64,000 bases of DNA from Euglena gracilis (lineage: Eukaryota): NCBI GenBank assembly GCA_039621445.1, contig CP154954.1, positions 48,091,847 through 48,155,846 on the forward strand. The letters run 5' to 3'. The notes under the pieces are model-generated. The model was not told the origin of the DNA. It searched no databases and was given only the letters and a program-made list of their open reading frames with translations. The translations under genes and the position numbers were made by a program. Every line of letters begins with the position of its first letter. Positions within the stretch are counted from its first letter, which is position 1. Below are positions 12,501 through 59,100 of the stretch, in pieces.

Positions 12501-15500
12501 CCGAATAGTTGCCCCCAGGGGCTTCTATTCAGGGGGGGTTAAGTGACTGAGCGATTGTAGTGGGCTTGGGTCTCAGATGTCAGGATGCTGAACTTGACGC
12601 GCATTGTCTTGCCAAATGTTAGCCCACCTAGTGTGGAATATTTTCTGTGGAGATATAAACATATAAATATAAATTGTTCGACATTGGGGGGATTGACGGC
12701 GATGGCACTTGAACGAAACAGCAAACTGCTGCAGCTGCAGGATCTGATCCTGAGTCACAAAAGGCATACGATGGAACCAAAATGGCACGCCGATTTGACT
12801 GGTAAAGCCGCGTCAGCCAGCCCTGAGCCAACAGGTTTAACATCCCTTCCAGGCTGGAATGTGTGAAAAGGGACAAAAAAGACACGCAATAGGACGCTCT
12901 CAATCAAGTAATTATGGCAAACAACAACTGATGATTGGTCACCATTGCCACAAACATGAGCACATTTTCGAGCAATTTACTCACCAAACTCACAACGATC
13001 CAATCAGGCTTTTGCTTAAGGGATTGCAGTGCCCCCGGGGGGGGGGGGGCTGGACTGCAGCTAGTCCAAATCTGGCTAGTGGGATTTCTAGCAGACCCCC
13101 CCCCGGGGGGGTCTGCTAGCAGGGCTAGCTAGTGGAAAATTTTTTCCAGTGACCGGCGCGAAGCACCAGAAACTTTTTTTGGGAATTTTTGGAACAAAAT
13201 CAGCCAAAAACCTATTAAAAACCTCATTTCCACCTCGGCGCGCAGCGCTGGAGGAAAAAAAAGGAAAAAAACTGGAGGAAAAAAATTCCAGTTGGGGGGA
13301 CCCCCGGACCCCCCCCCGGGGGGGAGGGGGGTCTAGCTAGTCCATTTTTTCCAGTGTCTAGCCGATTGGCTAGCCAGTACCCGGGGGTCCTTAAGCAAAA
13401 GCCTGGATCCAATGTGACTTTCATGTTTTTCATCAGGCTGGTCTGAAAAATGAAATCCCGCAAATGAAAACAAGAATTTTTTGCAACACCCCTTGTGCAA
13501 AAGGCAAAATTTATTACCATTGTTGTCAAATATTCGACTGATAGATCAGGGGCAAACAAACAAATCAATGGAAAAGCTTGCACAGGCGTTCATCTTTTAA
13601 AGCCTGAACAAAGATCGTGGAACGTAAAAATGACAGGAAAATAATACTTCAGAAAAAGCAAATTTGGGAAGATTTCAATTTCGAAATTCAGATTTTGGGT
13701 GCAGAGTTGTAACTGCGCACACCATGCAGATCAGTCTGAATACCCTGCAACCCCGGGTCGGGGGTTGGGCAAAGTGGGCACCGTACACCGAAGAACCTTT
13801 GGACCCCGAAATTGACCCCAAAAGTGGTCCCCCAAGCCCCCCCCCCCCCCGAGACCTCCCCCCAGGGGTGGGTAGGTGGATCCCGACCCCCAAAAACAAA
13901 AAAACCTCTGCCCCGACGCCATCTACAAGCTTTACCTATTTTTCTCTTCATTTGGAGTTTTTTTGAAGGCTTTGGCACCATTTGAGCTTGTTTTGGAAGG
14001 CTTTGTAAGCCAATTAAATAGTTTTGTTTGTTTTGCTGTTGAACAACGACATCCACATGCACATATGAGTTGTACACATATGAGTGGTTTTATCACCAGA
14101 AACCCCCACCCGTCAGACCAACTGGCTGGGCGACTCACCAACCCCTCCCAACGCAAGTGATAATTTCCATTACGTTGATTCCCTGAACAGTGCAAAGGGA
14201 ATTTGGAGAGCTCTGGCACCTGAAGGTGGCACTGCTGCTGGTCTGGGGTGTCCGGGGGTGGCCCGCTGAACAGCGCCGGGGCGGCAGGCGGGGGCGGGGG
14301 CGGCGGGGGCGGGGCTGGCTGGGGGGCACTGGCCCCAGCCCCCTCCGCGAATGGCCAGGCAACGGGCCGGGGATTGCCCACTGAGAGAGAAGGGGCCGCG
14401 TGTGCATCGCCACGTAGTCTGTCTTTGTCCCCAGGGAAAACGACAGCCACCTTTCGGTGTAAGCCGTAACAGAGGGATGTGATGGGCACATAATACATGC
14501 ACAATGGCTAAATGCCCTGTTTGCTTTTGTCAACCATGATCACTCCACCCAGGGGTTTGTGTTTTAAGAATGGGGGGAGGGGGGTGTCACCCACCCACCC
14601 GCCCACCCCCTGGCCGGGGGGGGGGGGTTGGGGGACCCAACCCACTTTTCCCTGAAAAGGCCAAAAAATAACAAAAATGCTAAAAAAAGGCACCTCTTTC
14701 AAAAATTTTCGGTGCCTTTGGCGCCGAAAAGTATATCCCACCCCCTGGGGGGACCCCCCCCCGGGGGGGCTCGGCCAGACCCACCCCCCCACCCCCCCAG
14801 GGACCAAGACAAAAAAAAACCCCCTGACTCCAACAGAAGAGGGGAGCCAGCTCTTGGCAGCAGGGTCGGTAATTGTTTCCCAACATTTTGGATGAGTGTT
14901 CACAAAAATCAGAAAAAGCAAATTTTGATCGAAACTGTGTCAAATTGGAGGATTTGCCTTGAACTGGATTGTTGGACAAAGATTGCTCAAACCAGACAGA
15001 GGGAGTGCGGAGTGGAACTCATGGGCCAGCACCTTCAACGCTGGGGATGACGCGCATCTCCACCTCCACCGCCGCTGCGCGTTCTTCGGTGTGCAGCTGC
15101 GTCACGTCCTCCTCGGTCTTCAGCCGGATCTGCATGCCGCCGCTGCTGGGGGGCGGGGGGCGGGCGGGGGGGGGGGCTTGTTTGTGAAACAGCACTCCGA
15201 CACCATCAGGGGGGGGGGGACTTTGATGCGAATTCGGCGTGGGAGAACCCGAACGTGCAGAAAACTGGGCACTGCGGTTTGGTTGCGGCCGTGGGGCCCA
15301 CCCAGCCAGGAATTCCTGGAAAAGAAAGGGGGGGGGTGCCCTGCCGTGTGTCAGCCAGTGGACCGGGATACCCTAAGTGTTGTGCCTGCCCTCCAACTGG
15401 TGGGCAGCAGGGGGGCAGGGCCACACGGTGGGTATGCCAGCTCGCAAGGACAAATTCCTTCGGTACTGAAGGCATCTGAAGGATCCCCGTTGAAAGTTCT

Positions 15501-18500
15501 GAAAAAGAAAAAAGAAAACCTGGCGCGGGGGGAGCCCAACCCACCCCACCCACTAATGGATATTCAATGGACAACCCCCTTCATACCCCCCCCAAGGGGC
15601 TCAGGGTCAGCTCTGGGGGGGGGGGGGTGAACACATTGCTGTGTTTCGGCATGGAATTTGACACCAAAGAGAACAGGAGGAAAAGCCTGGCAAGGAGGCA
15701 CTGGGGGTAGAGGTGGCTGCACTTCTTCCACAGGCGCAGCCATGATGCGGTCCACAGTCTGGGAGAAAGCGAATGCAATTCATACAGTTCATACAACAAA
15801 AAACAAAAAAAAATGCAAAAGCTACAAAAAACTGTAATAAAAACAAACAATAATAATGATAATTATGAATATGATAAAAAAAAATGAAAAATGATAAATA
15901 ATGATAAATATGAATATGATAAAAAATGAAAATGATAAATTCAAAAAAGATGCCCATCACCGATGCAAACCCAATCCAAACTAATCCATCCCAATCCACG
16001 CCAATCCACATTGCTAACCTCACCATTGAGATAAAATCAAAACACTTTCCACCCCTTTCAGAACGAAGACTGGTAATCTACTTGGGCTGTTAGCCCCTCT
16101 CAAATACAGAGGACATGAAACAGTGAGCTTTGCCCTTCCCCCAACCCCAATGTTCACATGGCATGGATGTGCGGTGGGCAACATGCCTGGCCGGCCCATG
16201 CCGCCACACCTCTTCTTCGCGCGGAGGAGGGTTGGCGGCCTTGGGGGCGGGTCGGCGGTCTTCGGTCAGCCGCCGCACGCCACTCCGCCGCATTTCGGCG
16301 TCCGCCACGCGGCGCTGCAGCTCGTCCCTCTCCCTCTCCAGCTGGAGAAGCTGTAGGCGGCGCCAGGGCGTCGCGTTCCACCACAACCCGTACCCCCAAG
16401 CAGGCTTCTTTTGAAGACTTCCCCAGGGGTTCCCCACCCAGCCTGGCTCAAGACACCCTTTTAATACAAAAAAGGTTTCTTGTTTGTTTATTTTTTTAAT
16501 GCCAGCGCGGACTTCGCATCTGGCCGGGTGTGTTCCGTGTGGTGAGTGAACATGCGCGCGCACAGGGGAGGGGGTCTTACAAGCCAAAAAAAAGGGCCTG
16601 CCCCCAAGTCCCTGCAACGTCTCTGAGTCCCGGTAACGTGCGCCCTCGGCAATGATGTTTGCCCGCCTGCGGGCAAACATCAACCAATGCCATTTCTGCA
16701 AAAAACCCAGGGGTATCTGAGGCACACTGCGTCGGTAGTGCATTTTGGGGGGGGAAAACAAGCAGTCCAGGGCGAAGGAGGGTTCCTCCAGAGTCCGTTG
16801 GGGGCCCACCCACCACTGGGTACACGGCGTCCCCTTTGGCAATGTCCCGGGCGGTGCCGCTCCTGCAGCAGGGCCAGCTCGGGGTCAACCGCCAGCAGGG
16901 AGGAGGAGGGGGGCGGAACCGGGGGGAGCGGGAGGGCCCCGTCCCCGACAGCAAACGGCGAGGGGCGTCGCAGGCCGGGGTCGGAGGGAGGCACAAGGCA
17001 CAGGAGAAGCCGGATGTGGGGCGGACTTTCTCCCTCGCAACAAATGAACGTCCACTTTCTGAGCAAAAGCCATATTTCTTGTCCATTGGATGGCGGTCCA
17101 CCACAGCTTGGCTTGCCATGCGTTGAACTGGAAAACACTGTTTTTTTTTTTTTTTCCCACCAACCCAGATTGGCCCAGATTGCCTGAATGGTGCTGCACT
17201 GAGAGGTGCACTGGGGGACCCGGGGGCAGGGGGGGAGGCGTCGGTGGGAGTGGTGCTCCGTAGTCTCGCAGGCTGGGGGGAGGCAGCGGCCGGTCGCAGC
17301 CAAGGCTTCCTGTTTGCCACCAGAGGCCAGGCTGGGCGGGGCGGGGTGGGCCCCAGGCCCTCGCTCCGGAAGGCGGCGGTGGGGGTGGCATGGGGGGCAG
17401 CGGTGGGGCGGTGCCAGGGGTGGGCGCGCCCTCGTCCACCAGGGCCGGGGCAAGCCGGGGCACACCGAACGGAGTGGGCGACCCGGAATGCAACAGCGTT
17501 CGGAACGTTCTGTGCTCTGACTCGCCGGAGGTTCGGCACTGGCAATGCGGCGGCCCAGCAATGTCAACGGCGGCCAAATCCTCCACGTCTATTGCACCCA
17601 GCGATCACACATCAGTTGGGCAGGTGAGTGGGAGAATTGATGGCCTCTCTCAAAGGCGAAGATGCAATTGGAAGTTGGTCATTCCAACGATGACGTGTCG
17701 GACCTCATACACAGCAAGGGGGTGGCGGGTTTCTGGCAGAGAATCCTGTGCCACAGCCAGGCCACAAGGTCCTCTGGGGGTTTCGGCAACGTCGACGCCA
17801 GACTGACGAGGTCGTCGGGAGGGTGGGGTTGGGGCCCTGAAAAGAGGTGCCCCATTCAGCGAAAAGGCGCCTGTCCCGGGGCAAGAGTTATATGATTCAA
17901 CCCTGTCTGTCGACATATTTACAGCATTGATGAACAGAAGCATAAAGGGTTTTGGGAGATGGCCTTTTTGCCAAGCTAATTTTGTAGATCCGGTTGGCCC
18001 CTGGTCGGGCCTGGTTCTAGCTGACATATGTAACAAAAAAGGGGTGCCCATTCAGAAATCATTTGCAAAAGAGTATTCTGTGACACACATCAAAACCACG
18101 AGATAACATTTTGGGTCATCCGCAGGGTTTGATATAAGGACAGGTGGGGGGGTGGTCCGGACCCCCCCCCCCCTGCGGGCCAGGAGGGGGGGTGGGGGGG
18201 ACACCCCCCACCTAAACCATGTACGCCCTCCTTATATCAAACCCTGGTCATCCGGTTGCCCCAATAAAAAAAAACAGAAGACCACTTTTGAACCTTTTAG
18301 TCAAATCATCACATACAGTATGAGACAAGGCCATTTTCTTCAAAGCATGCATTCTCATCTTTAGTTGCCACCAATGCAACTGGAAAACCTCCAAGACAAG
18401 GGAAAATGGATAAAAACTTCAACTGGAAAGCAAAAAAAAAGAACATACGATCTCGTGGAGGAGAATGCTGCATGCGAGCTGCTCCTCCGACTGGCCCAGC

Positions 18501-21500
18501 GTCATGAGCTGCATGCTCTAAAGGTCGCATAAAAAAAGCAGAATATTACATTGAAAGATGTAATCTGCAATTCAAAACCTTCACAGAGCTGCCATTATTG
18601 GAAGACAACTGAAACATGAATGAGCAACAATGAATCTCAAATCAGAGAAACAGTGGGGCAGGGGGGTTCATTTAGGGGGAGGGGGTACGTCAAAAAGAAT
18701 TTTTTTCAGCAAGCCCGGTCCTATGAAACACCCGCCCCACATTCAACAAGCTGAGCCCTGCTAATCATATATGAAACATATAACAGCATTGAGACTTTGT
18801 GAAAATAACACACACACACACACAGGGGTTGGTGCTTATCCATCGTTGGGGGTCAAATCCTCATCCATAGTCATCCATAGTTGTCCATAATTATCTGTAA
18901 TTATTTGTAATTGCAAAAACGCTTGTAACCCCCCTGATAAGTGCACAGTGCCCTAATTATGTGAGGTGCCCCAATTAATGCGCACCACCAAAGGGTCCCA
19001 AACTACCTCCCTAAAAAGTGCATGCCCCCAAAGGAGAAACTGTTGCCACATCAGGTCAGAGCACACACAATTATGCTGACTTTAAGTTCCTTCTCAATAC
19101 TGTCTTCCTCAGACCAAATACTTCTATCATCTGAGCCCAAATTTGACACATAGTCACCTGACTCATTGCTTGACATCACAAGAACAGGAAAAACTGTTCA
19201 AGAGTGGTGGAAAATTTATTATTTTGTGCCTTGCCGTGAGCAGTGCCCCAATGAGTGCACGCACCCCTGCAGGGTACGAAACTATGTCCTTAAAATACGC
19301 GCACCCGTGCACTTTTTAGGGGGGAGGTTATTGACTGGGCCAGACACCCAAAAAAAATGCAATGAAATGCAATGAGGAAAAGCAGATTAAATGCAACTTC
19401 TGAGACGTCCAAATACCAATCAAAAGAATTTGACTGGCATCCAAATGCTGATGTGCACGATGCATGAAACACCTCCCGTCCTCTCAGTCAAAAGCCCTCC
19501 TCAGTTATGCCAGACCCCATATCCATAGTTATCCACATTTATCCATACATATCCATATTTATCCGTAGTTTATCCATGGTCATCCGTATTTCGGGTTTCG
19601 CACTTCTCCGTTCTTATCTGTAGTTATCCAGAGTTATCCATTTCAGGATAAGCACGGATCCTGAATCACAGATGCCATACATACATACATACATACATAC
19701 ATACATACATACATACATACATACATACATACATACATACATACATACATACATACATACATACATACATACATACACATATATATGGCAGGCGGGTAGC
19801 AGGGGGGGCCCCTGGGAGGGCCCTGCTACCTACGACCCTGCACTGGGTTGTTGGGGATACTGAAGGAGTGGGGTTTGGGTCCCGGCTGGCCGGCCTCTCC
19901 GGGACGCACATCCCCCCCCCCCCCGCCCGCGCCCTCCCTTGGGCCATGCTGTGCGATTCCCAAAGGCGGCATACAGGCAGGGGTAAAGAAAGATAAAGGC
20001 CGCCGACGGTCGGCCCCCACAAGGCCTGTGTGGTGACCCCAACAGTGGCAATGTTCAGTCCTGGGGGGGAGCACGCGCGGCAGAGGCCAAACATTGTGGG
20101 GAGGGGATGTGCGTCCCGGAGAGGCAGGCCAGCCGGGACCCAAACCCCACTCCTTCAGTAACCCCAACACCCCAGTGCAGGGTCGTGGGTAGCAGGGAGG
20201 CCCCCCCCCGGGGGGGCCTGCTACCCGCCTGCCATATATATATATATATATACATATATATATTTTTTTAATATATATATATATATACACACACACCATT
20301 TTTGATATTTTGGGAGAACTGGGTATTTGGAAGGGTGCATTGGATCGTTTTGGGGATCTGATTTTGGAGATCTGCTTTGATCAACAATTCCTTGATGTAA
20401 GGAACTGTTGGCCCTTTGGCCCTTTGTCCCTTTGGCTGATAAACCAAACCAGATCCCACCAACCCCAGGGGTTCATGAATGGTGGGTTTATCCACTTGGA
20501 AATGAAGGCATTGCATACCAATCGTTCGTCCGACTTTGAGAAGATGGGGGATCCCTAGTATGGATATTCATGGATATGAAACTGACATTGCTGTCTTTCT
20601 GTGGCAACCATGCAGAAAAAATCTTGCAACCCCACCTTGATAATTGTTCAATCATTTGTGAGGAAGGATTGACAAAAAAAAACTGCGCTTTTTGTGGCAT
20701 TTTTGCCGCACACTCCCCCCTGAATTCAGCTTGATGTGGCGTGCCCAAAGCGCGTGAGGAGCGACGATGGACCTGTCTGGCAAAAGGCCTCTTCGTTTCC
20801 TTGCCGTCCACGCTCCCGACTTTTCTTCTCTTTCTCCTGCTGGGCTGCCCGAGCTGCCTCCTCTTTGATGCGTTGGAAGACCTCCGGAGGGAAGACGGCC
20901 ATCTCCGCCCACGTCCGCAGGAGTTTTGCATACTTCTGCTGATTGGACCCTGCGGTGGCACAGAGATGCCACCCCGGAAAGACCACTGGACAGCTCTCGT
21001 ACTGACCCTGGCCCTCTGGGTACCTGTTATTTGGCAATGTGGAAAACCTTGGTGCCCTGTTTGCTTCCCTAAAAAAGATATTTCCCAATATTGTGGAACC
21101 AATAGAAGCGTGGGACCACCACAAGTCTGCCCTCGGTCCGGTCCACCGCGCGCGCACCCCCAATTTTAATGGGAAGCCTCCAGAAATAAACAGAAATCAA
21201 ACAGGTCCAAAAAAGGTATCAAACAGGTCCAAAAAATAGAAACACAACTCCCGCTGCTGAAAGCGGCGGTCTGCCATCAATGCACCAGCACTTTAATTCA
21301 GAGACGGGGATTATAAATGGCAATGCTCTTTCGGAAGGATCACAAACAATATCCCCTCTGGGCGATGTGTGGGAACCAAAAATGACTCAGGATTGGAAAA
21401 CGTCCAGAAATGAATATTTTGCGAAAGCAAATAATGCATTTATCTCAAACTGTATTGCAAGGAATTCACATCTGGATATTTTCTTCTGACTTTCCGCTTG

Positions 21501-22661: not shown

Positions 22662-22705
22662 ATGTCAGCCGAGGCAGCGTCTGAAGGGGCATCTCCGTAT
22701 GTGGA
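22662..22705 (+). CDS. Probable first coding exon [14 protein letters not shown](D)
   Basis: Removing 22706-22803 (GCAGCC...GGCTGC stem) joins it in frame to exon 22804-22901 ([33 protein letters not shown]). Confidence 0.6.
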
Positions 22706-25668: not shown

Positions 25669-25712
<44 letters not shown>

Positions 25713-26013: not shown

Positions 26014-26060
<47 letters not shown>

Positions 26061-26062
26061 GT

Positions 26063-26149
<87 letters not shown>

Positions 26150-47100: not shown

Positions 47101-50100
47101 GGGGTGGGCTGGGTGGGGCGATCCCTCCCTCCCCTGGTTCTTTCGAACAACCCCCGCCCCCCGTCCTGCACTGCCCCCCCCTTGAATAATTTGCCGACGT
47201 TTTGGGGCTGGCCTGCTGCAAGCACCAAAGCACGGGTGTGGGCGGGCTGGTGGGGGTGCTTCCCCTGAACGAAAAGCGACCCAGGGTCCCCCGGCGGTCA
47301 CAGCGAGGGTGGGGCTCAAAGCAGGCTCAGGGCAGTGGGCAGGCCCTCACGTGGCCCCTCGGTGGGTTCCAGCACCTCGCAGGGGGGACGTGCAAAGGGT
47401 GAAGGGGCCGGCTGCCAGCACTGCTGAGCGACAAGCTGGCGGGTCTGGAGGAGCAGATGGCCGCTGCGGCGGAAGCAGCTCGGCAGACGCTTGCGGCGGT
47501 GGAGGGGCAGGCGGCGGAGGAGCAGCGTCGCTTGTGCGAGGCGATGGAAGGAGCGAAAGTTGACCACCTGCTGGTCTAACCCCAAAGGGTTTTTCCAACA
47601 CCCGTCCAATTTTTTTGTTCCAGTTCTTTTTCCTGCTCTTTGCATTCCAAGTGTAATTTTACCTCGATATTCCACCTCTGGTCACCTGCAGCTTCTGTTT
47701 TGGCAGGATAGAAATTAATATCTGCAACTGTCCCGTAATTTTGCTGCAATTTTCAGAATTTCACCTGCAATTATCCGTATTTTTCCGCTCGCCTCTGATA
47801 TCAATTCCTCCTCCTCACATATGTAATTTGGAAATCTTGATCTAAGGCTACGAACAGTGGGTTACAGTGAAGCGGCAGAGCAGATACAGCAGCTGAAGTG
47901 GCATCTCGCAGCCCAGGGGGAGGAGTGTGCACGACTGACTGCTGCACTGGCGGAGGCGACGAAGCAACTCCATTTCGCTGATTCTCGCCCCGGCTGTTGC
48001 TTTTTTACACATTTCCTCTTGTTGAACAGCTTTACAAAATTGCTTTCCGCCATTCACATCTAATTTTTTGCTGCACCACCCAACCAAATAGGCTTCTTTG
48101 CTGGCGCCTTTGAACTCTCCACAGAAGTTTTTTCCACCGTCCTCGTTTCTCTTTTCCTTTTCCTTTTTTTTTGTGCTCCAATTCATGGTTTCTGTGCTTT
48201 GCATTCTTGAACTGCGATGCCCGGTCAGCAGCTGACCAATTTTCAATCCACCCTCCAGCTGGAGATGGCAACTGGTGGATTATCGTGCTGTTACCTCTCC
48301 GATGTGTCTGAGGCTGGTGGCTTTTGACATTGTGCAGGCCTGAGACCACTCCCTCTGTGATAGCGAGCGTTTTGGAGGTGGAGCCTGACGGAGTCTCAAC
48401 TAGTTGCACCACAGAGAGATGTGGCGTGATTCCCCAATTGCAACCCAGGCTCCAAACCAAACTTTTTTTTCAGTCGGTGCCAACCCCATGGGGGGAGGTG
48501 CTAGGGGCAGGCACCCCATAGCACCCCTGCCAACCCCCCCCCGGCTAAACTACCTGAGACTTTCCCAATCAAAAATTCCCAGCTCATTCTCCTGAGTTCA
48601 CCGCTGGATTAAAGTTGTTGTGTGACCCTTCTGGCTTGTCATGCCCAAAACGTTGTCAGTTTGTTTGGTTCTGGACCACCTGTCACGTGAAAACAAAGTT
48701 GCCAGGATCCCCGGAGCTGGGTGGTTTGTCAAGTGACCGTTTCCCAGGGGTGGCAGGCAAGCATTGGGGTCGAAACGCTCAGACGGGACCGAAGCAGGAC
48801 TAGAACCCGGCGGGTGCTCCGAAAGCCCACCACCGTTGGCCCTGCTGACCGCCTCCGCCGCCATGGCAGACTGCACCCCCGTGGCCGACCCTGCCCTCAC
48901 CCCCGGGGACCCGGAGGCCCTCCTCCCCGCCGACGCTGACGCCCTGGACGAGCTGGTGGACGTCGTGACCCACTTCCGGGGGGCCCTGTGGCGCTCTTCC
49001 CCCCAATGGCCGGAGTTTATTTGTTTAGTTTGCTGTGGCTTTAGTTTTGGGGAAATGACCGTGTCCTCTGGTCCCCTGGGGTGGGGGCTGAACAGCAGCC
49101 GGCAGCCAGGCCGTTGATCGGGCCCAACAACCCTAATTTCAGCGCCGCAAAACCGGAAGTGGTTGGGCTGCTGCCAAACCATTCGCAAAGTGACAGCTGG
49201 CCGCGGCGGCGACCCATCGCCACCCGACCGCCAGTGGACCCCCACAACGTTAGGGGGGTCACTGGTCGGGTCGCCCCCCCCCCCCTCCGTCAATTCACGG
49301 TGGGCTGCGCCACAAAGCACGCCGCAGCCCCCGTCCGGCGGCGTGTGGCAGCCGAGGGGGCGGGGCTGAAGGGGCAAGGCCCGGCAGCTGGAGGGCCGGG
49401 CTGAGGCGATGATGGGGCCGGGGAAGCGGCGGGAGGGATTGGCGGCGCCCCCCCCCCGCTGGGGGGGCAGGCGGCTGGAGCGGAGTGGACACGGCGCAGC
49501 TCACGGAGCAGCTGGCGCCCAGGGGGGTCCAGCGCCGGATGGCCGCCCGTATTTTTTTTTGCAACATCCACCAAAAGTGGTTTGTTCTTGCTTGGTCCTT
49601 TCCTTTCTTTTTTTGGGGGGGAGCCAGCAGACCACACAGGACGTAATTGGCTCCTGGTTGAAAAATGGCAGCAGGTAATCTCTTAAGCAGGACGGGAAGG
49701 GTCCAGCCAGCCAGCACCTCCCAGCAGGGTCGCGGACTCCCCCGGGTCAAAATTAAGTTTTCACATCCCGGCAAAGGACTAGACCGAAAAAAGTCGGCGC
49801 AAAGCTCCGAAAATTTTGAAATAAAGTGGTCAAAAATGGCCAAAAAGGCCATTTTTTTGTACTTTTTGGGGGGTTTTCACCTCAAAGATGCATCCCAGGT
49901 AGGTTTTGGGCTGTTTTGCCTGTTTTGGGGTGCCAGCCAGGCCCAGCCCGGCAGCTGGGTTCGAAGCACCTCCCTGGACCACCACTCCCTGGGGGGGGGG
50001 TCCAGCCAGCACCTTTTTCCAGCCGGAACCTCTTTTCAGCCGGCCGGCTGGACCCCCCGGGGGTCCTTATTAAACTCCCTGAAGCCTGGAAGCCACGACA

Positions 50101-53100
50101 CGGCCGTGGCTTCCAACAACCAACCCCTCAGGGACGGGCAATGCAGGGCCCGCTTGATGGGAGGGGCGGGCATGGGCAGCGCGGACTGCCCAGCCAGCGG
50201 CGGTCACGGTCCGCAACGAGCGGCTGGAGGCGGAGGCGGGGCGGCTGCAGCTCGAAGTGGGGGCGCTGGGGCAGGACCAGACCCGGCTGCGGGAGGAGCT
50301 GGCGGCCCACCAGCACATCACTGCGCCCAGCCCCGGTTCGGCTGTCCTCCCCCGCCATTGCCCTTTGCCCCTCCCCCCGCTGGGGGTTACCACTCAGCAA
50401 AGTTGATGAGCAGGTCGTGACAAATGAACCGCTGGTGGCTGTATGGGACGGGGGGAAATCGCTGCAGCGGAAGGGGAGCCACCTTTGATGATTCGGCTTC
50501 ATTTCGGATTGATTTTTGAGCAGGTTCGATTTCCGAGGTTGAAGTCTGCTTTGGGGAGGGGTCACCCTTTTTTTTTATTCAGCCCAAGTTTTGCAGCACC
50601 AGATGGGATTTTCAGGAAGCGACACTTTGGTTGCACAAGGTCCCCAATTCCATCAGAGAGGAAGGCTGTCAGGGGCTTTGGGAGCCCAACCCCGCCTTCC
50701 GTCCACCTGCGCTGCCGGGAGCCCAGCAGGCGGTGTGGGACGAGTCCCGCAGCGCACTGGAGGCGCAGCGCGACGACGCCCGGGAGCAGTGTGTCGGGCT
50801 GCAGTCCGCACTGCACACGCGGTCCGCAGAGTGCCACCGGCTGCAGGAGACACCCACGGCCCGGGGGGGGGGGCTCAATGCCGCCATTCCGACCAGCCAA
50901 GGTTCGATGACGGAGGTGGCAGGCGTCCAACCTCGGCGTTGGCCACCTGTCTGCCGCCGGCGCCCCGGCCCGTGCCGGCACAGCGGGGCCTCGAGGGCGA
51001 GCTCGCCGCCACGCATGCGGAGCTGCACGCGCTGCAGGCTCACTGCCGGCACACGGAGCAGCGGGCGCTCGACGCCGCGCGGGACGCTGCAGCGTACCAG
51101 AGCCGGGTGCAGACCGCTGGGGAAGAGGCGCGAACGCTGCACGAGGAGATGGAGTGCGCGGCCCAGCCGGCTGTTGATGAGACCCCTGCCAAACGCAAGT
51201 CCCACAAAGGACTGCATCCCCCATCCCCCTCCTCCCCTATAATGGGTGTGTCAGTGAGGGGATGGACGCAAAGGCTGAAGCCAGATGCGAAGCCAATGGG
51301 AGGATTGCAATTCTGCGGTTGCCCTCTCGCCCCAAACTTCGTGATTCACAACGTGCTTCTAAATGTTCCCTCGAGGCGTGGGCCCATCAACGTGCCAACT
51401 TACTTTTTTTTTTGCATTTTCCTTCATGGGGTGTTCATTCTGTTCCTCCAGTGGGTGGCCCGTTTTTCAGGTGAATGCCCCCCCATGCGGCCGGCTGGGC
51501 TCGGCGGGGTTTGACCCAGCACGGGGTGCCGGGGCCTTGCTTTGTGCCAACGTTGTCATGAATGGCCACAGCGCCCCCCCCCCCCCCCTGTGCCGGCCGG
51601 CCTGCGGCCCCAGCGCTTCGGGAGCAGGCGGCGGCGCTGCACGCGGTGGCGGAGGAGCGCCAGGACCGCCTGGCCAGCGCGGCGGAGGAGTTGCGCAGCG
51701 CCCACGACCAGCTGCAGGCGATGGCGACGGCGAAGGCGTCCACCGTGGAGCGGCTGGAGGAGGAACTGGGGCAGCCCGGAGCCGGGGTCTGGCGCCGGTA
51801 ACATGTCGGTGGGCATCGAGTCAGGACAGACAGTAGTTCAACTCTTTTGTGGTACACAGCTGGTGTTTTTGATGTGCCATTTGGACACAGTGTACATCCA
51901 AGAAACGTTGACACTAAGAGCCTAAATTGTTAGAGGTCAAATTTCCTGTTTACTTTTGACTTTCCGGACCTGGGCTGGCTCCGTTGCACTGCGGCTTGAG
52001 CACGGCCAAGCCTTGCACCTCCAGAGCATATTTTGCCTGAGACATCTTAGCCAGCTCCCTCCTTTTCGGTGCTTCATCTGCCAGTCTGCCTTGCTACCGG
52101 ACCGACGGGATGTAGTTCTCAGAGGTGGGAATTCCTAATGCCATTCCACCACTTGCACAGAGCAACCGCCCGCCCGAGACCTCGACAGCTTGGGTTTTGG
52201 GTCCGACTGGAGCCTCTGATCGTGCTGGGGTGTCAGCGAATCGTTTTGATAGCCACTACCGACTTGCGCCCCCTTCCTCCCCCCCCTCAGGGGTGGCCCG
52301 GGGCTTGCGGGTGTGCGGCGGCTGGAGCACTGGGAGCAAGCAGAGCGGGGGCGGCTGGCGGTGGAGGAGCAGCTCGGGTGGTGTGGCGTGGCGGAGGGCT
52401 GGCAGCTGCTGGCAGCGCGGGCTCGGCAGGAGGCGCAGGTGGCGGGGCTGCAACACGCCATCGCCGACCTGCGCGAGGACCTGGCGAGGCCCCGCGCGTC
52501 TTTAGTCCTCGGTTTGCGTGGGCTGTGCCGGAGGTATTATCCACCTGTTTTCAGGCATGGGTGGAATGGGAGCAGCATTTGCGACTACACTTTTCTCGTG
52601 TGGATTCAAACAGAGAAAACACTTGTCACGCAAGCTCTCAAGCAAGAACGCCATTTGCATGCGCGGCACGTCTTTGCCTCCCCTGCCCTACCCCCCCCAA
52701 GCAGGGTTTGATATAAGGAGGGCGTACATGGTTTAGGTGGGGGGGGTGTCCCCCCCCCTCCTGGCCCGCAGGGGGGGGTCCGGACCCCCCCCACCTGCCA
52801 GGGGGGTCCGGACCGACCCTCGGGGGGGGTTCCCGGGACCCCCCCCAAAAAGGGTCAATTTTTTCCTCCGGCGCTTCGCGCCGAAATTTTTTTGCATTTT
52901 TGGCACATTTTTGCCCCAAAAGTGCCCAAAATGGCACTTTTGGTCGTTTTGGGGGGTCAAAAATTTTCGGCCCGGCGCGAAATTCGGCCACCCTGACCGC
53001 GCACCTGTTTAGGTGGGGGGGGGGTGTCCCCCCCACCGCCCCCCCTCCTGGCCCGCAGGGGGGGGGTCCGGACCACCCCCCCCCACCTGTCCTTATATCG

Positions 53101-56100
53101 AACCCTGCCCCCAAGCTTGTCTGAGCCAGGGCCTCCCCCCGGCCAAGGCGGAGGCGCTGCGGGCGGCGCTGGAGGGGCAGGCCAGCGCTCTGCGGGAGGC
53201 GGGGGAGGCCCAGCGCGCCGCCGCGGGGGACGCGCTGGCGGAGCTGCACCGCCGGCTGGATGTTGCTGCGCGGGACGGCGAGGCGGCTGCGGCGGCGCTG
53301 GCGGAGCTGCGGCAGAGCAACGGCCGCGCCCGGGGCGGTGCTGTCGCCCAACCCCCCCTCCCCCGGTTCGTGTCCACGGAGGGTGGGTTTGTGGTCCAGC
53401 CCGTTGTTTCCGGCCCTCGACTCCCGGACTGAAATCCGTCCCAAAATTTCACCACACTCGGTTGTTATTAATTGCCCACGTCGCCCAACGTTCACTCTTT
53501 TGAGCCGCACTGCACTGCGTTTCTTTGCAGTTTAAAACTGTATTTTTTTTAACACGGGGAACGCTGAGCGCAGCCCCGGCCCTCTCGTGGCAGAGGCCTC
53601 CGAGTTACAGTGCACTGTGGCGACCGCCATTCTGCTCGCTGGCAGGATTGGGTTCAAGCCTTCGCTCACCCCCACACCCCCACACCCACACACAGAGCCA
53701 AACGGCCCACACGACCCCTTTTGCAGTGTGTGCGAGTGCACAGACCTTTATGCAACTAACGGGCATCGTTTTGAAGGGCAGAAAGTCAGACCATCTGTGC
53801 ATATGCGTTTTGGCCCACAATCGACTGCTTGATTTTCTTGACGCTCCATCCCCTTCAAAAAGTCTGAAGAAACCTCTTGAGTGGCATTCTGGGACGCTCT
53901 GCGGCTTGTACAATGTACTGTGACAGCAGGGTCTTTCTTCCTGGAGGGGACCTTACCCCCCGGAGGGGGTCCAGCCAGCCATCACTTTTTTTTCCAGCCG
54001 GCACCCCCCGTGGCCTGCTGAAACAAAAGTTGGGTCCAGCCTGGCGAAGCAGGGCAGGAAAAAAAATTTCGGCGCAAGTGCGGGAAGTTTTTGAAAATGG
54101 GGTCAAAATGGCCAGAAATGGCCATTTTGACCTCCTAATTTGGCCGAAAAATGCACACCCAGATGGATTTGGGCTTTGTAGGGCATTTTTTTGGGTCCAA
54201 CTGTCTGCCGGCCGGCCGGAATCAGAGGCGGGGGTCCAGCCAGCACCTTTTTGCAGCCGGCCCACAGGACCCCTCAGTGACCCTATAATACAACCCCCCC
54301 CCCCCCCCAAAGTGGGTGTGGGGCCCCCACAGCCACGCCATTGGGGGCCCCATATGGGGTGGGTGTGCCCGGTCCCAAAAAAAAAACCTTCCCCCCCTCT
54401 TGACGGTGGCCGCCGGGTGGCGGGCCCGCAGCTGTTGGAGGAGGGCCGGCAGGCGGCGGAGGCGGCCGCGCTGCGGGACCAGCGGGACGCCGCCGCGGCG
54501 GAGGAGCGGGCGGCGCTGCAGAGCCGGCTGGCGGCCCTCGAGGCGCAGCACACCGCCGCCCTGCGAGAGCTGGCGTCGCCCCAGGGTCCCCACAGGTGAC
54601 CGGGGGGGGGGGGGCGTGGCGTGCTGAACTTTCAGCCGGCGGGCTGGTGGGCGGCGGGATACTGCCATCCGTGGTCCCCTGCACCAACCGGCTTCATCGG
54701 AGGTGGTGTGATTGCGCAGCCGGATCGTCTGTGTCCCTACCATACGGACATGCAAGCAGGTGCCCCCAAAAAAGAGCCTTGGCCACCGCACTCATGATGC
54801 GGTTGCCAAGTCTTTTTCCTGCATTGTTTCAGCCAAGTCCAGGGATAGCTGAGAAGATTTTTTTCGGGGGGTATTGAGCATAGGGAGGTATAGATTTTTT
54901 TTGGAAGTCACCAGAGGGTTTCTGGCACCAGCCAATGATCGCCTCCAATATCTGCAGACTGAATTTGAAGTGGTCACTACTGGGCAGTCCTCCGTTGGGC
55001 AAAGCTATGTATGCATTTTGGTGAGGAAGCTGAACCAACGCCATATGCTTGAGCAAGCAAAGGGAAGGTTAAAAACGTCATGGGATCGATGGGATGACAA
55101 ACTTCGAAGGAGGCTCGAGATTTGGGAACCTCGACAGCGTGCACATGGTGATCCATTCAAGGAGTCATGCGGGAATTCAACACCTTCCTCCTCCTTTTGT
55201 GGCTGGTCTGCGTGATTTTTGTCTATGTATTTCTTCATCATTTTTCTCCAGGGTGCCAGTGTGGAATTTCGATTTTTTTTTGTATTTTTGTGGTTGGGAT
55301 CAATCAGGCTTCTTTAGAGTCAAAAGAAACCTCCCTCGGGGTCCTGGTCTGGAGGCGAGGTGTAGGTTTCGGCGCGTAACGCCGAATTTTTTTTTGGGAA
55401 ATGGTCTCAGACGGCCCGATTTTTGGCCTCCCCCCCCTGGGGGGGGGACCGGGCTGGCTGGGCTGGGGGACCCCCCCGGGTCTGAACCCTGCTTGGGAGA
55501 ATCATCTGTAAGTGATTTTTTTGGTGCTTGTGTTCACATCAGATATTTAAGGGGCGTGGTGTGGGTCCGGATCCCCCCCTTCCCCTGGGGGTCCTTAAAA
55601 AACCTCTGGCTCATATGACGGAGCACTGTAGGCGAGAGGGAAGCAGCGATCCAGCGTGCCTCCGTTCTTGATGGCTGCGTGGGCCAGCCCACTGTGTCTT
55701 GCACCACATTCAGCACCTCAAAACCCAGCTCTGGCTGCACACTTCATGCACAGATCACCGCACACATACCCCACCCCCCCGACCCACACAACGTACACGC
55801 CATGCGCCTGGTGAAGGCGGGCACCCCATTCCCATGACACAGCTCGCTGACGCCAACGATGCACATGCCATGTGCCTCCGGTGGCTGCAGCACGCTGAGC
55901 AGGCTGGGCGCACCGCTCTGGGGACGGAAGAGCGGCTCGGCCGGACTGACGCGGAGCAGCGCCTCAGACGGGAGCTGCGGGAGCAGAAGGACCGCGCGGC
56001 GGACCAGTGCCGGAGGGCGGCGGACCGGTGCGCGGCGGAGGAGGCGGAGGGCCGCGTCGCGCTGATGCTGGAGTGCTGGCAGCCGGCCAACACCCCCCCC

Positions 56101-59100
56101 CCCCCAGTCCACATTCCAGCCACCCTCGGTGACAGAACAACCCCAGAAATGTCTGCGAGTTGCCAATTCCCCATCCCCAGAGACGACCTTCCAACCAGTG
56201 GTTGTTGTGTCTGGGCACAGGCTGAACTCAAAGTATTCGCCCACCTTGACTTTGGCAGACAAGCGTTGGTTCTCACTTTTTGGATGCCCAAGAAAGCGTG
56301 ATTTTTCTCATGTACTGATTTTGTTGTTTGCCTCCCGACAGGTCATCGCGCTGCCCATGGGGCAGGGATGGGTTCATGACGGGGTTTTGATTTTTTTGAC
56401 GCAGTGTCGGAGAAACCAGACTCTGGGTATGTCAAAAACTGTCAAAAAAATGTCGCGGAAATCAAGAAGGTGATTCCTAATTCAATGGGCCGCCCTTTCT
56501 GAGTGTCTATTTTTTCGCATAAAACATGGCGGACAAGTGAAATCCCCTGGTGGGGTCACAGTACCAAGTATCAAGTGTGAGCTTGCCCGTGGGCAGGGTC
56601 ACCCTTCTGTTGATTTGCCAGTGCCGGGGAGCCGGAGGCGATTGTCCCACTTCCTCTGCCGGGATTGGCTGCGGTGGGGATGCCGCTTGTCCTTGGAACC
56701 CCTCACCCTCCTCGGCCTAACGACCCCCCGTCGGAGGCCCTTCTTTTTGGTCCGAAAATGATGTCCAACGACCACCCCCCTGTCAGAGGACAGAGATTTC
56801 AGTCCTTGGACTTTGATTTGGTACGGATTTGTGAGGTTGGGAGTGGTTGGACGACGTGAGGGTGGGGCGGTGCGGGCAGCGGTGCAGTGGGGGCGGACGG
56901 CTTGGAGACTGCGGCGGGGTTGCAGGGGGAGGCGGCGGCGCTGCGGCGGGCGATGGACGTGGCGGAGAAGCGGCAAGGCCAGAGCGAGGGAGAGGCCGGC
57001 CAGGCCAGGCCCCCTTGCAGGGGAGTACACATGTGGGTTTTTTTGCCTTTTTTGATTCTGATCAAATTTGTCTTTTTTGCTTTTTTTGCCTTTTCCCCAA
57101 AAAAATTTTTATTCTTGTTTGGGAAGCAACATATTGTGGCCAAAGTTTGTTAAAACCAAATCTTCGCATTTTCTGTGCATATTGGCCCAAAAATGTGTAG
57201 TTTCAGAATCAGCCAATTCCCACCACCAATCTTAATGTTTACGTATTTGAAAAGATTTTACACCTAGGTCTGATTTTCTTTTTTTTTTGTGTGCCTTTTT
57301 TGCATTTTTCCCCCTTTTTTTGTGTCGCAATTTTGGAGTGTCCATACTTTCCTCATTCTTTCCCCCTGCCTCTTGTGGGGTCTATTGCCCATCCTCCCAC
57401 GAAGTGCGGGTACCTTCCAGAGTGGCCCCGCCTGAGGACGCCAAGCATGAGAAGCAGCTGGCGGAGGCCTCCCATCGGGCTGCGCTTGGGGTTGGGCCCA
57501 CCTTCCTGCCCTCACCCCCCCTCGTCTGTTTCTTGCTTTGTGACGTTTGCCATCACGCTTGGACGCACCCTGGGGGAGGTATGGGGACTTTCGGTCGCGG
57601 ATTCTCTGCGCATGTCACCCTCGTTTGGAGACATGCCCGACCCCTGCCTCAGCCCTTGTTGAACAGCTCCAGGTGGCCGTTGTGCAGCGTGATCGGTGGG
57701 CCCCTGGGGGGGAAGAGGAGCATTGGGGAGAAGCAACGGGGGGGGGGGGGGGGGGGGATCAAAAAGGACATGGTCTGCAGTGATGTAATTTGAATGGAGA
57801 CAGGGGGGCAATATGCAACTTGCATAATTTGCAATCTTTTGCATAATCAGTTTTTTTCCGAAATTTGCATTTTTTGCATTTTTTTTGCATTTTTTTGCAT
57901 AAAATATTTTGCCCTGGAAATTTTTTTGTAGTTGGTCGCCATGTCATGCTTTGTCTGGTGCCATTCATGTTGATTTTCAAAGTTTCGGTGCTTGCTATTG
58001 TCTTCCATGAGGTCAATCATTGACAGGCACACCGGCATTGTCACATGTTTACGGATTTTAGGCAGCAAACTCTGTTATATTCCAGCCTTTTCTCAGGGGT
58101 TTTACGCAAGTTGCATTTTTTGCATTTTTTTTGCATTTTTTGCATTTTTTTTGCGTTTTTCTGACTTGCATAATTTGAAGGGCCAAGTTGCATATCCCCC
58201 CCCCCTGATAGAGAGGACAAAAAAAAAAAAAAAAAAGCAGTCTGGCAATGCAGATTATTGGTATCTCAAACGGATATCGAAGCACTTCTCCAACACAAGA
58301 AACAGCCATGCAGAATTCCTGTCCCCCAATCAGGGTTTTTTTATGTTTGCCCCCCCGGGGGGGGGGGGGGGGGGTGGGGGGGGTGGGGCCGGCCGCCCCC
58401 CCCCCCCCCCCCCCGGGGGGTCCCCCCGGAGGGGGGTGGGATATACTTTTCGGCGCCGCAGGCGCCGAAAAAATTCTATTTTAGCATTTTTCGCATTTTT
58501 TTTTGTTTTTTTTTTTTCTGACATTTTTTTGTGGCCACCCGTGACCCCCCCCCCCCCCCCCCCCCCCCCCCGGGGGGCCCCCAGGGGTGGGTGGGGGGGG
58601 ACCCCCCCCTCCCCCCCCGGTCTTAAAAAAAACCCCTGCCCCCAATACCCACCCCCCTTGTGTGTGTTGTGGCGGGCCATGTGGTGGTGGTCGGGACAAC
58701 CCACGCTGCACGGCCAGCGGACCACCGGTGGGGACGCAGCGGAGAACCGGGCGGCAGCGCTGCAGGCGCAGCTCGAGACGCTGCAGGCCGCGGCCGGAGG
58801 GGCGGCGGCCGCCCGCGCAGCCCTAACCGAACAGCTCCAGCGGCTGGAGGAGGACCACACCCACGCCATTGCCTCCGAGCAATGTCAAGGTGCCATAGTC
58901 TGGGCATTCTTGTCTGGCCGCAGGCGGCAGTGGCCACCACCACGGACCAATTTCGGAGGTGTCGTGGCCAGCGGGGCACCTCCCACATTTTAACTCCCAG
59001 AAGGAGCCACCACCGGGGTCCCCACCGGCTGGCTCACAATGTCCTGCTCATCTCTTGCCAAAAGTCTTTCTGTCTGGCACGAGCCCCACTTGCACGGCGA

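What the first reader, a model, noticed from the sequence alone, without database searches (positions are those of the whole stretch)
13005..58638. Intron geometry (3+5 nt, Y|R) equals an 8-bp-TSD CAG...CTG transposon footprint
Seen: at least six MITEs (13005, 14550, 16401, 18123, 52702, 58331) start with CAG, end with CTG and carry 8-bp TSDs. Established: 8-bp TSDs with CAG/TAG-type ends are typical of hAT elements; euglenid nonconventional introns pair CAG at +4..6 with CTG at -8..-6 and favour Y|R junctions. Inference: 3 nt before the stem plus 5 nt after it equals 8 nt, so splicing such an insertion removes exactly one TSD and regenerates the mRNA. A general resemblance of these introns to MITEs has been suggested before; I cannot check whether this exact arithmetic has been described.
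Basis: partly seen in the sequence, partly recalled or inferred. Interest (0 to 1): 0.9.

Follow-up and report, generated by a model that had tools for sequence, protein, structure and literature searches.

The report
Transposon footprints match Euglena intron geometry
This stretch of euglenid-type DNA holds small jumping elements whose ends and 8-base insertion scars fit the rule the cell uses to cut out its unusual introns, so these elements are a likely source of those introns.

Summary
Five have perfect 8-bp target-site duplications (TSDs) and one matches 7 of 8. I found three more, two of them imperfect. Shuffled sequence gives about 0.1 such elements. A DNA run puts the families at thousands of copies.

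- The arithmetic fits the splicing code measured by knock-in in 2025 (N3-CAG...CTG-N5-6|R).
- A 2016 paper reports a newly gained Euglena agilis intron with 8-nt direct repeats. Its authors ascribed them to break repair.
- One 922-bp MITE-like element here (4442-5363, minus strand) sits exactly where an RNA contig ends an exon. Removing it plus its duplication keeps the reading frame, with GC3 of 0.97.
- All nine TSDs carry pyrimidine|purine-A at positions 5-7, which is the published junction consensus of these introns.

Not shown: a transposase (hAT is only a fit to end motif and TSD length), splicing of the other eight elements, and the genome-wide 8-mer test. No genome was held and RNA depth was 3 or less. 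A MITE origin, and the labels TIR and TSD, are already in print. I did not find the 8-bp, 3+5 or hAT link in print.

The parts
13005..13405 (.). MITE, 401 bp, ends CAGGC...GCCTG, 17-bp perfect inverted repeat, TSD GATCCAAT at 12997-13004 and 13406-13413
   Evidence: X1 depth about 1.2 million at place 13139 against 62-93 for the long pieces listed
14550..14826 (.). MITE, 277 bp, ends CAGGG...CCCTG, TSD ACTCCACC / ACTCCAAC (7 of 8). It shares an internal core with 58331-58638 in the opposite orientation.
16401..16600 (.). MITE, 200 bp, ends CAGGC...GCCTG, inverted repeat with a gap, TSD CCCCCAAG on both sides. It abuts the exon that ends at 16210 on the minus strand. On that strand its CTG lies 5 nt before a possible exon start at 16392. 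Whether it is spliced on its own or as part of a longer intron is open.
18123..18246 (.). MITE, 124 bp, 18-bp perfect inverted repeat CAGGGTTTGATATAAGGA, TSD GTCATCCG on both sides. As RNA it folds so that the two ends pair and the flanks stay single-stranded.
   Evidence: fold -88.5 kcal/mol, z -5.15, and -88.6 kcal/mol, z -4.62 on the other strand; four X15 contigs diverge right after 18246 (table 7)
52702..53107 (.). MITE, 406 bp, same family as 18123-18246 but inverted, TSD CCCCCAAG on both sides, inserted in a C-rich tract just upstream of coiled-coil-like coding sequence
58331..58638 (.). MITE, 308 bp, ends CAGGG...CCCTG, TSD CCCCCAAT on both sides
5595..5943 (.). It lies inside a roughly 3.1-kb conventional intron of a minus-strand gene.
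6578..7061 (.). Degenerate MITE, about 484 bp, starts CAGGGGTTTTCTCAAGG, last G lost, flanks ACCCCAAG / ACCCCAGA
4433..5363 (-). Nonconventional intron, 931 nt. It consists of a 922-bp MITE-like element (4442-5363, CAGGGATTTT...CAGTCCCTG on the minus strand) plus one copy of its flanking repeat GCCCC(C)AAG. Read on the minus strand it is N3-CAG...CTG-N6|A.
   Evidence: The X15 RNA contig piece 5364-5412 ends exactly at the repeat (table 3; the from_end rule fitted 8 of 9 listed places on known pieces, the ninth being one letter off in a record with a gap). Flanks. Joining 5364 to 4432 gives an open frame with GC3 0.97 running into exon 3374-3216. The acceptor end is inferred, not seen.
547..691 (-). 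Short nonconventional intron. Its 3' part is a MITE-type end (CAGGCTTTGCTTGACC on the plus strand from 552). The acceptor is CTG-CCGGA|G. There is no recognisable TSD. The donor end was derived from contig length arithmetic and does not fit N3-CAG.
766..1612 (-). Nonconventional intron, 847 nt, GGC-CAGCACTCC...GGAGTGCTG-CCCGC|A, 9-bp inverted repeat. The junction 8-mers match at 4 of 8.
   Evidence: the acceptor end 765 was seen directly, the donor 1613 comes from length arithmetic (74 + 157 = 231)

Best explanation
The window comes from a euglenid-type nuclear genome. It carries at least nine non-autonomous cut-and-paste DNA transposons (MITEs) of 124-922 bp.

They share one build: ends CAGG(G/C), then a T-rich stretch, then a TAAGR-like motif, then G/C tracts. 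They carry 8-bp target-site duplications and prefer C-rich targets of the form nnnnY|RAn, often CCCCAAG. They belong to families present in thousands of copies.

The euglenid non-spliceosomal intron machinery reads N3-CAG...CTG-N5(6)|purine. Any such element that lands in a transcribed exon is therefore a ready-made intron. The inverted ends pair in the RNA. The cuts fall 3 nt before CAG and 5 nt after CTG. What is removed is the element plus 8 nt, so the two half-duplications rejoin into the original sequence.

The spacer rule (3 + 5) and the matching pyrimidine|purine steps at both junctions are then imprints of the transposon's 8-bp staggered target cut and its target preference.

- **Shown here:** the elements, their duplications, their high copy number, the shared target motif, and one intron that equals element plus duplication.
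- **Taken from papers:** the splicing code.
- **Inferred:** the transposase (hAT-like by end motif and duplication length), and that fresh insertions are spliced at once.
For: 1. **Structure.** Nine elements were found. Five TSDs are perfect, two match 7 of 8, one differs by a 1-nt indel and one is degenerate. Shuffles gave 0 hits 27 times and 1 hit 3 times out of 30. Only flank length 8 is enriched: 4 hits against 0-2 for other lengths.
2. **Copy number.** X1 depth inside the elements is about 10^5 to 10^6, against 62-93 for the 8 long pieces listed.
3. **Splicing code.** PMC12501133 (sections 5, 8 and 11 read) reports that a 1-bp change in the donor spacer abolishes splicing and that the acceptor spacer is 5 nt with +1 tolerated. 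The signature N3CDG...CH'GN5-6|R is present in 61.2% of nonconventional introns.
4. **A new intron with 8-nt repeats.** PMC4770533 (passages) describes a gapC intron present in one E. agilis strain only that has eight-nucleotide direct repeats at its junctions.
5. **An in-window case.** The RNA contig piece 5364-5412 stops exactly at the repeat before CAGGGATTTT. Removing the element plus its repeat gives an open frame with GC3 0.97. The other five joins tested gave GC3 0.82-0.91. This element's left end closely resembles the right end of 58331-58638.
6. **Acceptors.** The two acceptor ends seen directly in RNA contigs (546 and 765, minus strand) lie exactly 5 nt after a CTG and start with a purine.
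7. **Shared junction motif.** All 9 TSDs, including 5 of 5 perfect ones, carry Y|R-A at positions 5-7 in one orientation. The background for 8-mers of this window is 0.088, giving a binomial P of about 5e-6 for the five. This test was chosen after seeing the data. The published junction counts are: pyrimidine before both cuts in 49 of 55 and 49 of 55, purine after in 51 of 55 and 55 of 55, and A at exon position 2 in 43 of 55 (PMC4770533).
8. **Excess of junction repeats.** 84.4% of E. agilis introns have short direct repeats at their junctions (PMC12501133). My own rough estimate of the chance level is near one half.
Against: - Only one of nine elements is tied to RNA splicing, and its acceptor end is inferred. 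A 57-nt exon starting at 4417 would fit the from_end value and the frame equally well, though it fits no known splice rule.
- At least 5595-5943 and 6578-7061 lie inside a long conventional intron, and 18123-18246 probably lies in one. This shows that the elements insert anywhere and need not act as introns.
- The other two RNA-supported nonconventional introns show 4 of 8 and about 1 of 8 junction identity. One donor (691/692) does not fit N3-CAG.
- With a perfect duplication, the mRNA cannot show where the cuts fall. So 3 + 5 = 8 is a necessary condition that is met. By itself it is roughly a one-in-ten coincidence, not proof.
- No transposase was found. Fifteen long open frames gave no Pfam family.
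- The TSDs do not show the T at position 2 of the hAT target consensus nTnnnnAn, and four of nine elements end CAGGC rather than YARNG.
- Across elements that share an internal core (14550 versus 58331), the orientation of the Y|R-A step follows neither the element nor, where known, the gene.
Confidence: 0.62

Rival explanations
1. Coincidence or convergence. The MITEs are ordinary transposons that sit mostly in introns and spacers. Nonconventional introns arise by another route, such as double-strand-break repair as proposed in 2016, or decay of conventional introns. The shared CAG/CTG ends and the sum of 8 are not causally linked.
For: The authors of PMC4770533 themselves ascribed the 8-nt repeats to break repair. 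Two or three of nine elements lie inside conventional introns. Two of three RNA-supported nonconventional introns here lack a clear duplication. 38.8% of E. agilis nonconventional introns do not fit the signature.
Against: Four independent features coincide: the CAG/CTG ends, the paired ends, a spacer sum equal to the TSD length, and the Y|R-A step. One intron equals an element plus its duplication and belongs to a high-copy family.
Confidence: 0.15
2. The elements are DNA transposons and seed the introns, but they are mobilised by a superfamily other than hAT that also makes 8-bp duplications. Merlin is already reported in Euglena gracilis. A P-like or unknown group is also possible.
For: Two Merlin families with 8-bp TSDs are described in E. 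gracilis (PMC8101967, passages). No hAT transposase was seen here. The TSDs lack T at position 2. I found no report of hAT in euglenids (search listing).
Against: Merlin inverted repeats end in 5'-GG, whereas these elements start CA. Five of nine ends fit YARNG, and all have 8-bp TSDs and short inverted repeats, as stated for hAT (PMC3014272; PMC3942097).
Confidence: 0.2
3. Reverse direction. Excised nonconventional introns spread as RNA by reverse splicing or retro-insertion, and the 'MITEs' are dispersed intron copies. The 8 nt would travel with the excised RNA (3 + 5) instead of being made at the target.
For: Excised introns are full-length circles (stated in PMC11282704). Many flanks look alike: AAG or AAT before CAG, and CCCCC after CTG.
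Against: The flanks are true direct repeats of the whole 8-mer, and they differ between copies (GATCCAAT, GTCATCCG, ACTCCAMC, CCCCCAAG). Carried-over RNA ends would not create this. The elements also lie outside exons and in both orientations.
Confidence: 0.03

Closest known systems
Euglenid nonconventional introns (Milanowski et al. 2014 and 2016; splicing code of Nomura et al. 2025, PMC12501133)
   Same: CAG at +4..+6 paired with CTG at -8..-6, a 3-nt donor spacer and 5-6-nt acceptor spacer, a purine at the exon start, ends brought together by inverted repeats, and frequent direct repeats at the junctions. The intron 5363..4433 and the acceptors at 546 and 765 fit this.
   Different: The papers describe introns and only suppose a MITE-like source. 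Here the same ends are found on dispersed, high-copy elements with intact 8-bp duplications, and most of these are not shown to be introns.
hAT-superfamily MITEs (for example Ds1-type or Mar-type elements)
   Same: 8-bp target-site duplication, short terminal inverted repeats, a CAGGG end fitting YARNG, small size, no coding capacity, and high copy number.
   Different: No transposase or autonomous partner was seen. Four of nine ends are CAGGC. The target motif nnnnYRAn (often CCCCAAG) is not the nTnnnnAn consensus. That consensus is recalled from memory and was seen only as a search term hit.
Introners: transposon-derived spliceosomal introns of Micromonas, Aureococcus, dinoflagellates and others (reviewed in PMC11282704)
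   Same: A DNA transposon with inverted repeats and a TSD becomes an intron at insertion. Removing the element plus one TSD copy restores the mRNA.
   Different: Introners use the spliceosome and build GT/AG sites partly from a 3-5-nt TSD. Here the cuts are set by distance from a CAG:CTG stem, the machinery is non-spliceosomal, and the TSD is 8 bp split 5|3.
Merlin elements of Euglena gracilis (PMC8101967)
   Same: DNA transposons documented in a euglenid, with 8-bp TSDs.
   Different: Merlin ends carry a conserved 5'-GG. These elements start CAGG and end CCTG, and the 8-mer repeat directly abuts the C and the G.

Membership tests
MITE (non-autonomous class II element) | Short, with terminal inverted repeats and a target-site duplication of fixed length | tested here: met
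   124-922 bp. Perfect inverted repeats of 6-18 bp. 8-bp TSD perfect in 5 of 9, matching 7 of 8 in 2, with an indel or degenerate in 2.
MITE (non-autonomous class II element) | High copy number | tested here: met
   Summed X1 contig depth is 10^5 to 10^6 inside the elements against 62-93 for the 8 long pieces listed. The tool warns this is not a strict copy number.
MITE (non-autonomous class II element) | No coding capacity | tested here: inconclusive
   The longest ATG-started frames are 9-98 aa in eight elements and 208 aa in 4442-5363. The 249-aa frame overlapping that element had no Pfam family. Open frames are common in this GC-rich DNA.
hAT superfamily | 8-bp target-site duplication | tested here: met
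   feature as stated in PMC3942097
hAT superfamily | Terminal motif YARNG and short inverted repeats (10-25 bp) | tested here: inconclusive
   CAGGG in 5 of 9 elements fits. CAGGC in 4 of 9 misses the last letter. The motif is as stated in PMC3014272.
hAT superfamily | Autonomous partner encoding a hAT transposase | not testable with these tools
   No genome is held for this window. Fifteen long frames of the window gave no Pfam family.
hAT superfamily | Target consensus nTnnnnAn | tested here: not met
   On the + strand, A stands at position 7 in 6 of 9 TSDs and in one copy of a seventh, but T stands at position 2 in only 2 of 9. The consensus itself is recalled and was confirmed only as a term in hAT papers (listing).
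Merlin superfamily | Inverted repeats ending in 5'-GG, with an 8-9-bp TSD | tested here: not met
   The TSD length fits, but the elements begin CA and end TG, with the repeat directly adjacent.
Euglenid nonconventional intron | N3-CDG ... CH'G-N5-6 | purine, with a pairing stem | tested here: met
   As sequence, 8 of 9 elements with their TSDs satisfy this on at least one strand: the base at TSD position 6 is a purine (my reading of the table). 6578-7061 has lost its terminal G. The stem is shown for 18123-18246.
Euglenid nonconventional intron | Actually removed from the mRNA at those positions | tested here: inconclusive
   Supported for 4442-5363 only, with the donor end seen and the acceptor inferred. 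RNA depth was 3 or less, and only 15 of 420 joints were listed.

The most novel reading that the evidence does not exclude
Most euglenid nonconventional introns, about 70% of all introns in Euglena agilis, are insertions of one superfamily of CAGG-ended, 8-bp-TSD MITEs. The non-spliceosomal splicing code is tuned to that transposon's footprint: a 3-nt and a 5-nt spacer, with pyrimidine|purine-A at both junctions. Every new exon insertion, in either orientation, is then silent at the mRNA level from the first generation. The excised RNA circle would carry end-TSD-end, mirroring the circular episomal forms of cut-and-paste elements.
Probability: 0.45. Interest if true: 0.85.

Novelty: new variant of a known kind. 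Interest (0 to 1): 0.62.

Why it matters
The origin of euglenid nonconventional introns was still called unclear in 2025 (PMC12501133, discussion passage) and a mystery in 2016 (PMC4770533). The 2014 paper noted that no transposable element was known from euglenids (PMC3935182).

Real, high-copy MITE families with the same ends and an 8-bp duplication would do three things:
- turn a general resemblance into a countable prediction: the repeat length, its register at -5..+3, and its decay with element age;
- explain why the spacers are 3 and 5 nt and why both junctions share one pyrimidine|purine step;
- reinterpret the 8-nt repeats of a newly gained intron as a transposon scar instead of break repair.

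It also suggests why 84% of the introns were 'slidable' and were set aside in the 2025 analysis. Those may be the youngest and most informative ones.

Tried and rejected
- **Whole genome.** None is held, so there was no genome-wide junction test and no transposase search.
- **RNA.** RNA depth was 3 or less, and only 15 of 420 joints were listed, all inside repeats or between them. No RNA holder was listed by the run search; the RNA runs came by species label.
- **A false joint.** A joint at 9798>11796 in an X15 contig turned out to be a repeat of the same 10-mer and not an intron.
- **Protein route to spliced transcripts.** The exon 16392-16210 searched against longer proteins had 209 candidates and none scored. 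The route was dropped.
- **Metagenome scan** with the 18-nt end of the 18123 family. It gave 9 loci, each with a single end, no partner and unrelated flanks. These are chance matches.
- **Pfam** on 15 long frames: 0 families.
- **TSD identity over all CAG...CTG pairs** with a stem of 6 bp or more. There was no general excess over flanks shifted by 12 nt. Only the MITEs stand out.
- **Predicting nonconventional introns** from the code plus GC3 and reading phase. In-phase versus out-of-phase candidates were 1323 against 2348/2 on the + strand and 532 against 1165/2 on the - strand. This did not discriminate and was not used.
- **ORF continuity across six elements** was not informative in this GC-rich DNA.
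- **16401-16600 as an intron of its own.** The frame stays open over 197 codons once it is removed. However, GC3 of the upstream 180 nt is 0.45-0.5, and X15 depth suggests about 120 nt of exon in that bin. It more likely lies at the 3' end of a longer intron.
- **Exon ends near 8583, 9065, 16887 and 17410** could not be resolved.
- **TSD orientation tied to element orientation.** This fits 18123 versus 52702 but fails for 14550 versus 58331.
- **Earlier scan notes.** Nothing on this genome or these elements.
- **Supplements are closed.** The SI of PMC12501133 (sliding-distance figures, Datasets S7-S8) and Table S3 of PMC4770533 may hold the repeat-length data that bear on the claim.

Full report
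**1. What is in the sequence**

They end at 13405, 14826, 16600, 18246, 53107 and 58638. Each starts CAGGG or CAGGC and ends with the complement.

Five are flanked by a perfect 8-bp direct repeat: GATCCAAT, CCCCCAAG, GTCATCCG, CCCCCAAG and CCCCCAAT. One has 7 of 8 (ACTCCACC / ACTCCAAC).

An ungapped scan asked for a CAG head, at least 11 of 14 inverted-repeat bases paired, and an 8-mer flank with at most one mismatch. It returned six elements. Thirty block shuffles returned 0 hits 27 times and 1 hit 3 times, and the reversed sequence returned 0. For the same CAG-headed pairs, exact flank repeats of 3-7 or 9-12 nt occurred 0-2 times and of 8 nt four times.

The scan missed 16401-16600, whose inverted repeat needs a gap. 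A looser scan (CAGG...CCTG, TSD with at most 1 mismatch) gave 26 pairs. Eight were 1.5 kb or shorter: seven real elements and one pair without an inverted repeat (24578-24959). The 18 longer pairs were chance or came from the tandem array.

I added three elements:
- 5595-5943, TSD 7 of 8.
- 4442-5363, whose TSD differs by one G in a run.
- 6578-7061, a degenerate copy.

**2. What the elements are**

All nine share one plan: CAGG(G/C), a T-rich run, a TAAGR-like motif, then G and C tracts. 18123-18246 and 52702-53107 are one family in opposite orientations. 14550-14826 and 58331-58638 share an internal core, again inverted. The left end of 4442-5363 closely resembles the right end of 58331-58638.

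As RNA, 18123-18246 with its flanks folds into one long hairpin that pairs the two ends and leaves the flanks single-stranded. The energy is -88.5 kcal/mol, with z -5.15 against 200 shuffles, and the other strand behaves alike.

In the DNA-type run X1, the 8 long pieces listed, 7 of them in non-repeat sequence, have depth 62-93. Positions inside the elements sum to 571,586 up to 1,203,280. The tool warns that summed depth is not a copy number, so I read it only as thousands of copies. Contigs of the RNA-type run X15 diverge exactly after 18246 (table 7), which marks the end of the repeated unit.

These are MITEs. An 8-bp duplication, short inverted repeats and a YARNG end are the features given for hAT elements (PMC3942097 passage; PMC3014272 passage). 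CAGGG fits YARNG, but CAGGC (four of nine) misses its last letter.

No transposase was found. No genome is held, and 15 long frames gave no Pfam family. Merlin elements with 8-bp duplications exist in Euglena gracilis, but their ends carry 5'-GG (PMC8101967 passages). Here the 8-mer repeat directly abuts CA and TG.

**3. The link to introns: what is in print**

- Nonconventional introns have CAG at +4..+6 and CTG at -8..-6 (PMC4770533).
- Knock-in tests showed that a 1-bp change in the 3-nt donor spacer abolishes splicing. The acceptor spacer is 5 nt with +1 tolerated, and the next exon must start with a purine. The resulting signature is N3CDG...CH'GN5-6|R, found in 61.2% of nonconventional introns (PMC12501133, sections 8 and 11).
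- The same paper set aside 'slidable' introns with direct repeats at their junctions, which are 84.4% of all introns. It says the origin remains unclear and mentions MITE-like elements.
- The MITE idea dates from 2014, when no euglenid transposon was known (PMC3935182).
- A 2024 review labels CAG/CTG as 'TIR' and the junction repeats as 'TSD-like' (PMC11282704). Its text holds neither '8 bp' nor 'hAT'.
- Four full-text searches found no paper that states the 3 + 5 = 8 link or reports hAT-like MITEs in euglenids. Subscription journals and supplements were not searchable.
- PMC4770533 reports a gapC intron present in one E. agilis strain only, with eight-nucleotide direct repeats at its junctions. 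The repeats are longer than in its other introns, and the authors ascribe them to double-strand-break repair.

**4. The link to introns: what this window adds**

First, an example.

Table 3 gives, for each variant position, the distance to the nearest end of the aligned contig piece. I checked this rule against nine places on pieces whose ends are listed in table 8 (records 9, 10, 11, 12 and 13). It fitted eight of them. The ninth, in a record with a gap, was one letter off.

For the spliced X15 contig of depth 60.6, a minus-strand gene, the rule yields a piece 5364-5412. That exon therefore ends ...GGGCCCCAAG, directly followed by CAGGGATTTTTTTT. 922 bp further on, the element ends ...CAGTCCCTG and is followed by GCCCCCAAGGCC.

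Joining 5364 to 4432 removes the element plus one copy of the repeat, 931 nt in all. This gives an open frame with GC3 0.97 that runs into the known exon 3374-3216. The other five joins tested gave GC3 0.82-0.91. Read by the code, this is N3-CAG...CTG-N6|A, and the sixth spacer base is the extra C in the downstream repeat copy.

The acceptor end is inferred. A 57-nt exon starting at 4417 fits the same numbers and frame, but it has neither GT-AG nor the nonconventional signature. X15 depth in that bin corresponds to about 85 nt of exon, against 72 or 57 expected.

Second, acceptor ends. The two acceptor ends seen directly (546 and 765 on the minus strand) are CTG-CCGGA|G and CTG-CCCGC|A, exactly N5 and a purine. 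The intron ending at 547 has a MITE-type end related to the 13005 family.

Their donor ends follow only from contig length arithmetic (74 + 157 = 231). One donor (1612/1613) fits N3-CAG and the other (691/692) does not. Junction 8-mer identity is 4 of 8 and about 1 of 8 for these two. So, of three RNA-supported nonconventional introns, one keeps its duplication.

Third, a concordance that I did not find stated in the papers. All nine duplications carry pyrimidine|purine-A at positions 5-7 in one orientation, and this includes all five perfect ones. The frequency of that pattern among 8-mers of this window is 0.088, which gives P of about 5e-6 for five of five. I chose this test after seeing the data.

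Under the model, position 5|6 of the duplication is where both cuts fall. The published counts are:

| Position | Base | Count |
|---|---|---|
| Last base of the upstream exon | pyrimidine | 49 of 55 |
| Last base of the intron | pyrimidine | 49 of 55 |
| First base of the intron | purine | 51 of 55 |
| First base of the downstream exon | purine | 55 of 55 |
| Second base of the downstream exon | A | 43 of 55 |

(PMC4770533.) Two junctions that obey the same rule are what two copies of one 8-mer would give.

**5. Limits and contrary points**

- With a perfect duplication, the mRNA cannot reveal the cut positions. The sum 3 + 5 = 8 is a necessary condition that is met. It is not independent proof.
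- Eight of nine elements are not shown to be spliced. 5595-5943 and 6578-7061 lie in a roughly 3.1-kb intron that ends in AG at 5413. 18123-18246 lies downstream of an exon followed by GT (and my reading).
- 16401-16600 abuts an exon. Its removal leaves 197 open codons, but the 180 nt upstream have GC3 of 0.45-0.5. It more likely sits at the 3' end of a longer intron whose acceptor it may supply.
- The Y|R-A orientation follows neither the element core (14550 versus 58331) nor, where known, the gene.
- The hAT target consensus is not met at position 2.
- A test based on predicted introns did not discriminate.
- A window-wide histogram of flank identity showed no general excess beyond the MITEs.

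**6. Verdict**

The elements are real 8-bp-duplication MITEs with hAT-like ends. Their footprint fits the measured splicing code exactly. One of them is, on the RNA evidence available, an intron made of the element plus its duplication. A published 'new' intron carries the predicted 8-nt repeat.

The hAT assignment and the genome-wide claim remain open.

The general idea is known. The new parts are the specific 8-bp register, the shared target and junction motif, and the existence of the MITE families themselves.

Noticed in passing
window 34170-47550: Tandem array of 11 copies of a unit of about 1.15 kb, 97-100% alike over most of the unit, with GC near 0.69 and strong G over C skew. Spacing is 1148-1158, except for two units enlarged to 1536 and 1951 by G-rich minisatellites (39834-40128, 42547-42758, 43007-43223). 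Long open frames on both strands gave no Pfam family.
   Followed up: partly
window 4871-5020: A 150-bp near-perfect palindrome (23-bp perfect arms that extend outward into the flanks) nested inside the 4442-5363 element. It has no direct-repeat flanks.
   Followed up: no
window 9799-9808 and 11796-11805; 10001-12000: The same 10-mer (GGGAATTGAC) followed by an A-rich run stands at both places, and an X15 contig joins 9798 to 11796. This looks like a segmental repeat of about 2 kb and not an intron. The stretch between has an unusual purine excess (GC skew 0.57, AT skew 0.45).
   Followed up: partly
window 18520-20774, minus strand: A conventional GT...AG intron of 2255 nt, shown by an X15 contig that runs from 18519 on to 20775. 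It contains the (CATA)25 repeat at 19676-19777 and a 443-bp inverted-repeat structure at 19789-20231.
   Followed up: yes
TSDs at 16393-16400, 52694-52701, 6570-6577, 58323-58330 and 5364-5371 (minus strand): Five of nine insertions sit in nearly the same target, CCCCAAG or CCCCAAT. CCAA at positions 4-7 occurs in 5 of 9 TSDs, against a window background of 0.013. These C-rich tracts ending in AAG resemble the C-rich tract plus AG of conventional 3' splice sites described for E. gracilis, so the elements may prefer to land at or near acceptor sites.
   Followed up: partly
window 63139-63318 and 25600-26160: Long simple repeats: (GA)n of about 180 bp, and AT/AC/GT dinucleotide tracts. The latter produce hundreds of false inverted-repeat-plus-TSD hits in naive scans.
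   Followed up: no
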